Assembly (NCBI RefSeq): GCF_006345805.1
Contig: NW_021826832.1
Span: forward strand, 1-11,964
DNA from: Octopus sinensis
Taxonomy: Eukaryota
Length of the DNA stretch: 11,964 nt
Direction of reading: 5' to 3'
Every line of letters begins with the position of its first letter. Positions within the stretch are counted from its first letter, which is position 1. A model generated the notes under the pieces. The model was not told the origin of the DNA, did not search any database, and saw nothing but the letters and a program-made list of their open reading frames with translations. Made by a program: the position numbers and the translations under genes. Below, piece by piece: positions 4,503 through 7,475 of this stretch.

Positions 4503-4530
4503 TATATATACATATATATATATATATATA
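4503..4530. repeat. (TA)n left flank of the hammerhead array
   Basis: Seen directly; abuts the array. Confidence 0.9.
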
Positions 4531-4649
4531 TTAACAATTAAGGAACGGCCATAATAGGCCATTCACCCACTAGAAATAACAGCCCAAGCTTCTACCGCAA
4601 ATAAAGATTAATTCCGTAAACAGGAGAAATTAAAAAACATTTACCCTGT

Positions 4650-4754
4650 ATTTCTTGTACGGTAACCGTTTCATCCGCTGTTTAATGTAAAACTAACCTG
4701 ATTAAATTAAATCAAGCCAATCTTCCATAAGCCCTCGGATTCTTCAGCAGAAAT
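4650..4754 (-). ncRNA. Type I hammerhead ribozyme, copy 1 (core intact; 1-nt deletions in stems I and III)
   Basis: Reverse complement has CTGAAGA (4741-4747), stem II ATCCG/CGGAT, and GAAACGGTTACCGTA followed by CAAGAAAT. Confidence 0.7.
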
Positions 4755-5132
4755 AGCTAAGTCGGAACAGATATTTACACGAGGCATACACAATCTTGCC
4801 AAGTCATATCTGACCTAAAATTTTCAAATCGTCGCACTCGCGCCAAATTTATCGGCAGCAAATAAATATCAGCCGTCGATTCCATTACGAATTAACCAAA
4901 AAATTCATAATTAATCAATATAGGGTGGCAAGGAAAATTTTGTAGAATTTTATTGCACCAGCGGCCCAGTGGGAAAAAATTAAATAGTCATAGACCATTT
5001 TTAAGTTCAACATTAACATTAAGGAACGGCCATAATAGGCCATTCACCCACTAGAAATAACAGCCAAAGCTTCTACCGCAAATAAAGATTAATTCCGTAA
5101 ACATGAGAAAATTAAAAAACATTTACCCTGTA

Positions 5133-5239
5133 ATTTCTTGTACGGTATACCGTTTCATCCGCTGTTTAATGGTAAACTAACCTGATTAAATTAAATCAAG
5201 CCAATCTTCCATAAGCCCTCGGATTCTTCAGCAAGAAAT
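5133..5239 (-). ncRNA. Type I hammerhead ribozyme, copy 2 (intact)
   Basis: Reverse complement of 6073-6179. Predicted cleavage between 5141 and 5140. Confidence 0.85.
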
Positions 5240-5621
5240 AGCTCAAGTCGGAACAGATATTTACACGAGGCATACCCAATCTTGCCAAGTCAATATCTGA
5301 CCTAAAATTTTCAAATCGTCGCACTCGCGCCAAATTTATCGGCAGCAAATAATATCAGCCGTCGATTCCATACGGAATTAACCAAAAAATTCATAATTAA
5401 TCAATATAGGGTGGCAAGGAAAATTTTGTAGAATTTTATTGCCACCAGCGGCCCAGTGGGAAAAAATTAAATAGTCATAGACCATTTTTAAGTTCAACAT
5501 TAACAATTAAGGAACGGCCATAATAGGCCATTCACCCACTAGAAAACATAACAGCCAACTTCTACCGCAAATAAAGATTAATTCCGTAAACAGAGAAAAT
5601 TAAAAAAACATTTACCCTGTA

Positions 5622-5726
5622 ATTTCTTGTACGGTATACCGTTTCATCCGCTGTTTAATGGTAAACTAACCTGATTAATTAAATCAAGCCATCTTCCATA
5701 AGCCCTCGGATTCTTCAGCAAGAAAT
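5622..5726 (-). ncRNA. Type I hammerhead ribozyme, copy 3 (core intact)
   Basis: Same motif with two 1-nt deletions in the stem II extension. Predicted cleavage between 5630 and 5629. Confidence 0.8.
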
Positions 5727-6072
5727 AGCTCAAGTCGGAACAGATATTTACACGAGGCATACCCAATCTTGCCAAGTCAATATCTGACCTAAAATTTTCA
5801 AATCGTCGCACTCGCGCCAATTTATCGGCAGCAAATAAATATCAGCCGTCGATTCCATTACGGAATTAACCAAAAAATTCATAATTAATCAATATAGGGT
5901 GGCAAGGAAAATTTTGTAGAATTTTATTGCCACCAGCGGCCCAGTGGGAAAAAATTAAATAGTCATAGACCGATAAATTTGGCGCGAGTGCGACGATTTG
6001 AAAATTTTAGGTCAGATATTGACTTGGCAAGATTGGGTATGCCTCGTGTAAATATCTGTTCCGACTTGAGCT

Positions 6073-6179
6073 ATTTCTTGCTGAAGAATCCGAGGGCTTA
6101 TGGAAGATTGGCTTGATTTAATTTAATCAGGTTAGTTTACCATTAAACAGCGGATGAAACGGTATACCGTACAAGAAAT
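6073..6179 (+). ncRNA. Type I hammerhead ribozyme, copy 4 (intact)
   Basis: Stem I ATTTCTTG (6073-6080) pairs with CAAGAAAT (6172-6179). Core CTGAAGA at 6081-6087. Stem II ATCCG (6088-6092) pairs with CGGAT (6151-6155). GAAA at 6156-6159. Stem III ACGG-TATA-CCGT. GUA cleavage triplet at 6169-6171. Confidence 0.88.
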
Positions 6180-6559
6180 TACAGGTAAATGTTTTTTAAT
6201 TTTCTCCTGTTTACGGAATTATCTTTATTTGCGGTAGAAGCTTTGGCTGTTATTTCTAGTGGGTGAATGGCCTATTATGGCCGTTCCTTAATTGTTAATG
6301 TTGAACTTAAAAATGGCTATGACTATTTAATTTTTTCCCACTGGGCCGCTGGTGGCAATAAAATTCTACAAAATTTTCCTTGCCACCCTATATTGATTAA
6401 TTATGAATTTTTTGGTTAATTCCGTAATGGAATCGACGGCTGATATTTATTTGCTGCCGATAAATTTTGCGCGAGTGCGACGATTTGAAAATTTTAGGTC
6501 AGATATTGACTTGGCAAGATTGGGTATGCCTCGTGTAAATATCTGTTCCGACTTGAGCT

Positions 6560-6663
6560 ATTTCTTGCGGAATCCGAGGGCTTATGGAAGATTGGCTTGA
6601 TTTAATTTAATCAGGTTAGTTTACCATTAAACAGCGGATGAAACGGTATACCGTACAAGAAAT
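6560..6663 (+). ncRNA. Hammerhead copy 5 with damaged core (CGGA in place of CTGAAGA)
   Basis: All stems are present but the catalytic core is 3 nt shorter at 6568-6571. This is either a mutation or a sequencing error. Confidence 0.6.
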
Positions 6664-6888
6664 TACAGGGTAAATGTTTTTTAATTTTCTCCTGTTTACG
6701 GAATTAATCTTTATTTGCGGTAGAAGCTTTGGCTGTTATTTCTAGTGGGTGAATGGCCTATTATGGCCGTTCCTTAATTGTTAATGTTGAACTTAAAAAT
6801 GGTCTATGACTATTTAATTTTTTCCCACTGGGCCGCTGGTGGCATAAAATTCTACAAAATTTTCCTTGCCACCCTATATTGATTAATT

Positions 6889-6898
6889 ATATATATAT

Positions 6899-6944
<46 letters not shown>

Positions 6945-6955
6945 TACCTATATAT
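6889..6955. repeat. (TA)n right flank of the hammerhead array
   Basis: Seen directly. Confidence 0.9.
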
Positions 6956-7475
6956 AGTGTATATGTTTTTACTGTGGTAGCTTAACTTCAATTTAATTAA
7001 CTCTAAAACTGATAGGCGTCGAAAACGCAACGAATCAATCCTACTTTCCGGTATCATCTATGTGTACCTATCTTCATTTATCACCGTCGTAGCTGCCCTC
7101 CTAGATATTTGGCTGCAATTTGCGGGATGCTAACCAGACGTATAGAACAGCATTTCCCATACTTTTGTTTGTTCATCAATTCTTTGATCAGAGGACAAAT
7201 CTTGCAAAACATCTGACTGAGTCTCCCACGGTGCTATTCAATTGCTTCATCATGAATTAAATACATCTGTAATTTCCATTAACCCAAGAGCCCCATCATT
7301 TGATTGGACAATTAATATATTAGACTAGGTCGTACAGTGGTTGCTCGGTTGTTATTTAAGCATTCTTTATTTTTTATCTGCCATTGTTTATTTGAAATAG
7401 CTACCTTATGCACATATAGGTTGAACTCGTTTCCAACCCAGTTGTGTATTGTATGAGCGTGAAGGTCACGCAACA

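What the first reader, a model, noticed from the sequence alone, without database searches (positions are those of the whole stretch)
4530..6890. Retrozyme-like multimer of a ~490-nt hammerhead RNA in an octopus-like genome
Seen: about 4.8 near-identical copies of a non-coding unit (consensus about 490 nt after filling single-base gaps), with five type I hammerhead motifs. Predicted cleavage sites are 483, 489 and 484 nt apart. Established: metazoan non-LTR retrozymes and Penelope-like element (PLE) pseudo-LTRs are tandem units with type I hammerheads, and retrozyme transcripts self-cleave to monomers that circularise. Inference: this is such a family, with a monomer larger than the roughly 150-400 nt I recall for described animal retrozymes. 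I do not recall a cephalopod description, but cannot verify novelty.
Basis: partly seen in the sequence, partly recalled or inferred. Interest (0 to 1): 0.9.

Follow-up and report, generated by a model that had tools for sequence, protein, structure and literature searches.

The report
Two-armed hammerhead retrozyme copied from circles
A 491-base unit carrying a predicted self-cutting hammerhead ribozyme has spread to hundreds of places in this animal (likely octopus) genome, mostly as two back-to-back arrays of near-identical copies, a pattern that likely records a borrowed Penelope-type reverse transcriptase rolling round one circular RNA from both ends of a DNA cut.

Summary
The repeat and its type I hammerhead are real, but the window holds two head-to-head arms (2.9 + 1.9 units) in (TA)n, not one tandem run. 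It is a young, dispersed, non-autonomous family: a 491-nt monomer, at least 551 insertion ends, two subfamilies, compensatory changes in the ribozyme stems. Of 98 loci, 73 have two arms joined at their 5' ends. One arm ends at monomer position ~131 and the other at ~237; none of 76 two-armed loci has the same end twice. This is the Penelope-like (PLE) inverted-copy-plus-tail signature, with a 106-nt tail. Units within an insertion, both arms included, share that insertion's variants (0.4 differences against 5.3 between insertions), which points to one monomer copied many times. Best reading: twin-primed rolling reverse transcription of a circular retrozyme RNA by a PLE enzyme (inferred; no partner identified). 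5' ends cluster just after the predicted cut. Contigs of runs guessed to be RNA show clustered A>G changes, and inherited variants lean A>G, suggesting ADAR edits written into the genome (weaker). The size is not unusual. The scan noted a different, ribozyme-free tandem unit with PLE-type ends in another genome.

The parts
4530..5971 (-). Arm A: 2.94 tandem monomers. 3' end (monomer position 131) at 4530, against (TA)n; 5' truncation (position 147) at 5971
5970..6890 (+). Arm B: 1.88 tandem monomers. 5' truncation (position 290) at 5970; 3' end (position 237) at 6890, against (TA)n
5970..5971 (.). Head-to-head junction of the two 5' ends, with 2 nt of microhomology
6786..6890 (+). About 106-nt 'tail' (monomer 132-237) that separates the two fixed 3' ends; likely the stretch between two RT start sites
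   Evidence: meaning inferred from PMC11167929
6075..6178 (+). Intact type I hammerhead: stem I, CUGAAGA, 68-nt stem II, GAAA, palindromic stem III; predicted cut after 6171
6562..6662 (+). Hammerhead copy with a damaged catalytic core in this assembly; cut site position after 6655
5623..5724 (-). Intact type I hammerhead; predicted cut after 5630
5134..5237 (-). Intact type I hammerhead; predicted cut after 5141
4651..4752 (-). Hammerhead copy with single-base gaps in stems I and III; predicted cut after 4658
4503..4531 (.). Left (TA)n target microsatellite
6888..6956 (.). Right (TA)n target microsatellite

Best explanation
This is a dispersed 491-nt hammerhead repeat family whose insertions sit in (TA)n, mostly as two head-to-head arms with fixed 3' ends at monomer positions ~131 and ~237, and it is likely a non-autonomous retrozyme copied by a borrowed Penelope-like (PLE) reverse transcriptase/endonuclease from a monomeric, likely circular, RNA. 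Model: (1) an array is transcribed and the hammerhead cuts out 491-nt monomers, probably helped by dimerisation through the palindromic stem III (predicted). (2) Monomers circularise (inferred). (3) A PLE protein dimer nicks both strands of a (TA)n tract and primes two cDNAs on one RNA, one at ~131 and one at ~237 (inferred; the fixed, paired ends are shown). (4) Each RT rolls round the template for a fraction of a lap up to about 12 laps, so all units carry that molecule's variants (the homogeneity is shown; rolling is inferred). (5) Many RTs stop near the hammerhead cut, as on a nicked circle or cleaved oligomer (the clustering is shown). (6) The two cDNA ends are joined, often by microhomology (junctions shown). 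ADAR likely edits the RNA, and some edits would be fixed in new insertions. Class assignment about 0.9; the full mechanism about 0.65; the editing step about 0.5.
For: Architecture: 73 of 98 loci have two arms with one 131-type and one 237-type end. Of 76 two-armed loci, 0 have the same end twice; two of the other three ran off the fetched stretch and one ended at 110. Six of 19 one-armed loci keep a short 237-type stub. 18 of 20 loci picked only by the 237 end had a 131-type end opposite. One monomer per insertion: over 289 units, pairs differ by 0.40 (same arm), 0.39 (other arm) and 5.3 (other insertion) at 58 segregating sites. 122 of 123 insertion-fixed variants testable in both arms are in both, with 22 partial cases; for example A84G is in 12 of 12 units of L067. 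Regrowth is needed: in loci picked by an end, the median arm is under one unit (0.87 in the young subfamily, 0.41 in the old), yet arms reach 11.6 units, and older arrays are not longer. Two primings on one template: in 12 of 76 pairs neither arm contains the other, and 3 are disjoint. In 17 of 76 pairs both 5' ends fall within 12 nt modulo the unit (permutation mean 4.7; 0 of 20,000 reached 17), and 7 of the 17 differ by whole laps. Cut site: 36 of 171 arms end at positions 1-30 (p 6e-11); internal junctions are exact in 298 of 320 crossings. Ribozyme: 4 pairs change on both sides, against 0 in slid controls. PLE link: intact RT+GIY-YIG ORFs exist, and one such family also ends in (TA)n with an optional ~35-nt tail. 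A purified PLE protein nicks and extends both strands, starts at two internal sites bounding the tail, and is predicted to be a dimer (PMC11167929). Editing: tree-counted A>G 25 against T>C 11 of 73 events (terminal 15 against 3 of 34), while singletons show 12 against 20 of 222. The same RNA-sense A>G cluster appears in contigs of two studies. At seven of its sites G is in 0-1 of 333-353 genomic units, and two edited patterns have 0 genome matches against 324 for the unedited one.
Against: No partner PLE was found: the unit has no similarity to 32 PLE loci beyond one 19-nt match, and only 150 of 5,031 GIY-YIG candidates were scored. A closed circle does not by itself explain why 29 of 102 multi-lap arms stop at positions 1-35, so linear or nicked templates must contribute. 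Only 6 ends lie at positions 1-3, and part of the cluster sits at a U-run at 22-29. In the whole circle stem I is not in the best fold (pairing probability 0.02; the hammerhead form costs 4.8 kcal/mol). In vitro the PLE start site did not differ between strands, and hammerhead cleavage was dispensable (PMC11167929). Eight of nine tested Xenopus retrozyme dimers did not cleave. The covariation comes from few independent events. Editing: simple polarisation gives only A>G 13, T>C 8, G>A 7 of 45, and the older subfamily shows no excess (2 of 30). The runs are only guessed to be RNA, no DNA of the same individuals was laid, and 40 rows of the difference table were not shown. The first 39 loci were the search's best matches and lean to long arrays.
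Confidence: 0.65

Rival explanations
1. Same PLE twin priming, but the usual template is a linear multimeric transcript, partly cleaved by a slow dimeric hammerhead. Arrays are homogeneous because their donors already were.
For: 29 of 102 arms longer than one unit stop at positions 1-35. Exact internal junctions (298 of 320) fit uncut multimers as well as ligated circles. Only part of the family was sampled, so donors can be missing. Multimeric RNAs are seen in axolotl (PMC7229834, passages).
Against: Linear copying with 5' truncation can only shorten arrays, yet the median arm is under one unit while others reach 11.6. Fixing a new variant in every unit of both arms needs a monomer bottleneck. 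Coincident 5' ends that differ by whole laps (7 of 17) are natural on a circle. A mixture of both routes is likely.
Confidence: 0.18
2. Single PLE termini or monomers insert, and arrays then grow and homogenise as DNA by unequal crossing-over or conversion (the satellite-birth scenario discussed in 10.64898/2026.07.22.740005).
For: 22 partial variants show some within-array exchange or duplication; it is the standard model for satellites.
Against: Older-subfamily arms are shorter, not longer (0.41 against 0.87 units, p 0.007). Partial variants are few and mostly in non-adjacent units. Inverted arms are as alike as tandem neighbours. 5' ends are tied to the ribozyme cut.
Confidence: 0.06
3. The inverted arm arises by self-priming or fold-back of one cDNA or of an antisense template, as suggested for rotifer Penelope elements, not by two primings.
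For: 10 of the 17 coincident junctions are same-lap, near-perfect palindromes. Self-priming was proposed for head-to-head PLE junctions (PMC3846280, passages). It explains shared variants between arms without further assumptions.
Against: Fold-back makes one arm a subset of the other; in 12 of 76 pairs neither contains the other, and 3 are disjoint. It does not explain why the copied arm stops exactly at the other fixed end.
Confidence: 0.06
4. The unit is simply the pseudo-LTR of an autonomous PLE whose full copies were not sampled.
For: PLE-type ends, tail and target; many Xenopus retrozymes match PLE termini; the PLE search was far from complete.
Against: None of 98 family loci holds an ORF inside the insertion. 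The monomer is permuted and perfectly tandem, and it has no similarity to 32 PLE loci. Descent from a pLTR remains possible, but the copies seen spread on their own.
Confidence: 0.04
5. For the A>G signal only: it reflects unsampled alleles or copies, selection for G-U-tolerant pairs, or transcription-associated DNA mutation rather than ADAR editing.
For: No matched DNA; the run type is a guess. Several fixed A>G sites turn A-U into G-U pairs. No excess in the older subfamily. A coding-strand A>G excess in transcribed DNA is known (recalled, not from a call).
Against: Wobble tolerance predicts a C>T excess too, but C>T 7 against G>A 11 shows none. The clustered changes are partial, recur in two studies and are nearly absent from the assembly.
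Confidence: 0.4

Closest known systems
Metazoan non-LTR retrozymes (Cervera & de la Pena 2020, PMC7229834; Li et al. 2026, 10.64898/2026.07.22.740005)
   Same: Non-coding, low-GC tandem monomers, each with a type I hammerhead; dispersed dimers to multimers; a self-paired fold; PLEs in the same genome; proposed circle-to-tandem-cDNA cycle.
   Different: In the passages and sections read, no two-armed inverted build, no fixed paired 3' ends, no (TA)n targeting, no test of within-insertion homogeneity and no cephalopod case. Stem II here is 68 nt. Circles and cleavage were shown there and are not shown here.
EN+ Penelope-like elements: Neptune/Nematis, Poseidon PAc, Naiad (PMC8557442, PMC11167929, PMC3846280)
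   Same: Inverted 5'-truncated copy head-to-head, a tail on one end only, microsatellite/AT-rich targets, hammerhead in the repeat.
   Different: No ORF; tail about 106 nt rather than 30-40; both arms are multimers of one permuted unit; near-strict pairing of the two ends.
Non-autonomous Chlamys PLEs such as MRC1 (PMC8557442, passage)
   Same: Non-autonomous PLE parasites that often form multicopy head-to-tail insertions.
   Different: Green algae; they generally resemble their autonomous partners at the 3' end; most Chlamys lack hammerheads.
pDo500 satellite of Dolichopoda cave crickets (PMC2837043)
   Same: Roughly 500-bp tandem repeat with a hammerhead under compensatory constraint; single and double hammerhead cleavage discussed.
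   Different: Described as an abundant satellite (about 5% of a genome), not as dispersed two-armed insertions.

Membership tests
Non-LTR retrozyme | Tandem monomers with a type I hammerhead in each unit | tested here: met
   3 of 5 window copies intact; 595 exact core matches in the genome
Non-LTR retrozyme | No protein-coding capacity; GC below about 45-50% | tested here: met
   GC 36%; longest Met frame 66 aa; no ORF inside any of 98 insertions
Non-LTR retrozyme | Dispersed genomic copies | tested here: met
   297 matches in 39 scored of 776 candidates; 137 and 551 exact end junctions, controls 0
Non-LTR retrozyme | No LTR, primer-binding site or polypurine tract | tested here: inconclusive
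   No LTRs in the mapped insertions; PBS and PPT were not searched for
Non-LTR retrozyme | Transcribed | tested here: inconclusive
   Contigs of 4 laid runs (of 18 listed), all only guessed to be RNA, cover the unit
Non-LTR retrozyme | Self-cleavage and accumulation of monomeric circular RNA | not testable with these tools
   Indirect only: 5' ends cluster after the cut; monomer bottleneck
Rfam Hammerhead_1 (RF00163) | Score at or above the gathering cut-off of 34 bits | tested here: not met
   21.5 and 21.4 bits; the core and three stems are present, with a long stem II
Autonomous EN+ PLE | RT plus GIY-YIG ORF within the element | tested here: not met
PLE-mobilised element | Inverted 5'-truncated copy, tail at one end, microsatellite target | tested here: met
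   same kind of ends in an autonomous PLE family of this genome
PLE-mobilised element | Terminal sequence shared with an autonomous partner | tested here: inconclusive
   None among 32 PLE loci, a small part of 5,031 candidates
PLE-mobilised element | Target-site duplication | tested here: inconclusive
   Hidden by (TA)n; flanks of a few loci (L046, L034) look duplicated by eye; not counted

The most novel reading that the evidence does not exclude
Each insertion is a fossil of one circular RNA molecule. A PLE RT/endonuclease dimer primes both strands of a (TA)n cut at two obligatorily different sites and rolls round the same circle, so A-to-I edits made on that RNA become fixed in every unit of the new germline insertion. 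The family would be direct genomic evidence for the proposed retrozyme circle-to-tandem-cDNA cycle, and a route by which ADAR editing feeds heritable A>G change into a genome.
Probability: 0.35. Interest if true: 0.85.

Novelty: new variant of a known kind. Interest (0 to 1): 0.62.

Why it matters
That retrozyme circles are reverse-transcribed into tandem cDNA by PLE enzymes has been proposed but, in the papers read, not shown (PMC7229834, PMC7761336); the 2026 preprint leans on co-occurrence and homology and discusses DNA-level satellite growth. This young family lets the question be tested from the genome: ends, lap counts and variants all point to one monomer per insertion and to PLE machinery. 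It also gives a sharp rule for PLE biochemistry (one short end and one tailed end per insertion, 106 nt apart), and a defined substrate and target for an in vitro assay. If the A>G signal holds, RNA edits are being inherited through retrotransposition.

Tried and rejected
Single head-to-tail array: rejected. Assembly artefact: rejected, since the same build recurs on many large contigs. miRNA family hits over the junction: they reflect the inverted repeat and are far below cut-off. Unusual monomer size: rejected. Error-prone RT jumping across a nick: indels at the cut junction are no higher than elsewhere. Partner hunt: GIY-YIG loci and 12 of 52 Rfam hammerhead loci show no sequence link. A loose end from one run matched a single unrelated locus with no similarity to the unit. 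Expression: no RNA holder is listed on record. The flanks had no cover in the four laid runs, which is not used as evidence. Depth shares are distorted because most contigs fit several copies, so no editing levels are claimed. ADAR neighbour preference on the fixed A>G sites was only mildly in the expected direction (5' U 7, A 3, C 2, G 1 of 13) and was not tested further. L063 was dropped from counts as a duplicate of L062. For one search, 22 of 46 distinct hammerhead regions were used, chosen for few apparent indels and for subfamily spread. The tree used 54 of 77 young-subfamily loci (those with at least 85% of sites called) and left out individual old-subfamily loci. A look-up of earlier findings by sequence gave nothing. 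Literature searches found no cephalopod retrozyme, no two-armed retrozyme and no ADAR-retrozyme study; the library lacks most subscription papers, and supplements (for example species lists in PMC7229834 and the preprint) were not seen.

Full report
Observation. Tandem Repeats Finder gives two arrays of period 487, at 4530-5971 (3.0 copies) and 5970-6890 (1.9 copies), and self-BLAST shows that they are inverted relative to each other. Both outer ends abut (TA)n. Each unit carries a type I hammerhead layout: stem I, CUGAAGA, a 68-nt stem II, GAAA, a palindromic stem III and a GUA cut triplet. Three of five copies pass a strict scan; one has single-base gaps and one a damaged core. The isolated region folds into the hammerhead shape (z -5.4). 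Rfam scores it below cut-off. Monomer positions below count from the first base after the predicted cut. The host was not identified by any search; 'octopus' is a recalled resemblance.

Family. A search of the own genome (2.72 Gb) gave 297 matches in the 39 scored of 776 candidates, the listed ones 96-99% identical. From 169 cut-to-cut units the consensus is 491 nt, 36% GC. Exact patterns count 137 junctions of one end with (TA)n, 551 of the other end and 595 ribozyme cores, with reversed controls at 0. The surplus of the second end belongs to an older subfamily, about 92% identical. Between subfamilies the ribozyme changes in a compensatory way: one pair in stem I, two in stem II, and the two central bases of the stem III palindrome, which can pair only between two molecules (22 of 46 regions; slid controls show none; few independent events). 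The circular monomer is more structured than shuffles (z -6.0, 40 shuffles), though its best fold lacks stem I.

Architecture. I mapped 99 loci: the 39 best matches including the window, 40 picked by the 131 junction and 20 picked by the 237 junction; L063 was dropped as a duplicate. Of 98, 73 have two arms joined at their 5' ends with one 3' end at ~131 and one at ~237; 3 more are two-armed with one end cut off by the fetch or at 110; 19 are one-armed (6 with a short stub of the 237 end); 3 are complex. No two-armed locus has the same end twice. This is the PLE signature: an inverted 5'-truncated copy and a 30-40-bp tail on one end only (PMC8557442 and its preprint, passages; PMC3846280, passages). 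For the anole PLE, purified protein nicks and extends both strands of AT-rich DNA and starts at two internal sites that bound the tail (PMC11167929, parts 1-2 of 4 read). This genome has intact ~780-aa RT+GIY-YIG ORFs with the CX2-5CxxC linker that marks Neptune/Nematis types. One such family ends in (TA)n with an optional ~35-nt tail (3 of 9 copies). None shares sequence with the unit, so the partner is unidentified. PLE fragments near 6 of 98 family loci lie outside the insertions.

One template per insertion. In the young subfamily (77 loci) 163 variant-locus events are fixed across the units of an insertion, 122 of 123 in both arms where testable, against 22 partial cases and 222 singletons. 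Pairwise differences are 0.40 within an arm, 0.39 across arms and 5.3 between insertions. In loci picked by an end the median arm is under one unit, and older arms are shorter, while arms elsewhere reach 11.6 units. Arrays must therefore regrow from a monomer at insertion, which a circular template gives. In 12 of 76 pairs neither arm contains the other, which excludes fold-back as the general route. In 17 of 76 both 5' ends fall at the same monomer position (permutation mean 4.7), 7 of them whole laps apart, as if two RTs met on one circle. Against a purely closed circle, 36 of 171 arms, and 29 of 102 multi-lap arms, stop just after the cut. This suggests that the ribozyme cuts in vivo and that nicked circles or cleaved oligomers also serve; part of the cluster may be stalling at a U-run. 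Internal junctions are exact in 298 of 320 crossings. The circle-to-tandem-cDNA route was proposed, with PLEs as candidates, in PMC7229834 and PMC7761336 (passages); the 2026 preprint (parts 1-3 of 5 read) supports PLE origin and discusses DNA-level amplification.

RNA and editing. Eighteen runs hold the sequence, none on record as RNA, 14 guessed to be. Four from four studies were laid; all are contigs, and they cover the unit. One X3 contig carries nine RNA-sense A>G changes within 71 nt (monomer 338-408), and X6 contigs show the same sites in part of their depth. At seven of the nine sites G occurs in 0-1 of 333-353 genomic units; 359 and 350 are genomic variants too. Two such forms have no exact match in the genome, against 324 for the unedited pattern. 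Among inherited variants, parsimony on a tree of 54 haplotypes gives A>G 25 and T>C 11 of 73 events, and 15 against 3 on terminal branches (p 7e-4 and 4e-4); singletons show no such bias. L064 has four A>G changes fixed in all its units. Results against: the simple polarised count is weaker (13, 8 and 7 for A>G, T>C, G>A of 45), the older subfamily shows no excess, the tree is poorly resolved, and no DNA of the same animals was laid. PMC7229834 mentions editing only as a possible cause of retrozyme heterogeneity.

Comparison and verdict. By the testable features this is a non-LTR retrozyme that works like a non-autonomous PLE. Its size is within known ranges. Eight searches (listings, with passages of the papers named) found no cephalopod retrozyme and no description of paired fixed ends or within-insertion homogeneity for retrozymes; a 2026 octopus repeat annotation has no mention of hammerheads or retrozymes in its main text (PMC13282606, term search). 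Supplements were not seen. Verdict: real; a new variant of a known kind; class about 0.9, twin-primed rolling mechanism about 0.65, inherited editing about 0.5; interest 0.62.

Noticed in passing
window:10260-11964 (+): Frameshifted non-LTR retrotransposon remnant (RT-like and endonuclease-like peptide pieces) next to a (TAA)n tract. It resembles R4/Dong elements (recalled); Pfam gave no match for the one 131-aa piece scanned.
   Followed up: partly
window:18-364: 1.9 copies of a 184-nt unit, 84% alike; looks like a SINE-type repeat (recalled).
   Followed up: no
L161-L172 (e.g. L164:636-1830, L166): A second, unrelated hammerhead family with a short stem II passes Rfam's cut-off (8 of 52 matches). 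L164 is a head-to-head inverted insertion in (TA)n; L166/L167 is a ~430-nt tandem that includes microsatellite.
   Followed up: partly
L093:673-4373, L095: A young PLE family has a 479-aa open frame overlapping the start of the 781-aa RT/GIY-YIG frame in another phase, suggesting a two-frame layout.
   Followed up: no
window:4530-6890 in runs X3, X6 and X1: The deepest contigs in X3 and X6 carry a haplotype like L131 (between the two subfamilies) plus a 6-nt deletion, not the commonest genomic form; X1 (another coded organism) carries old-subfamily letters and more diverged relatives.
   Followed up: partly
L123:909-975; L136; L102: Odd junctions: a stuttered run of the U-rich motif near monomer 22-30 (L123), and a four-part insertion whose outer arms both stop exactly at the cut site (L136).
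   Followed up: no
L062 and L063: The same insertion with the same flanks twice, 42 kb apart: a segmental duplication or an assembly duplicate.
   Followed up: no
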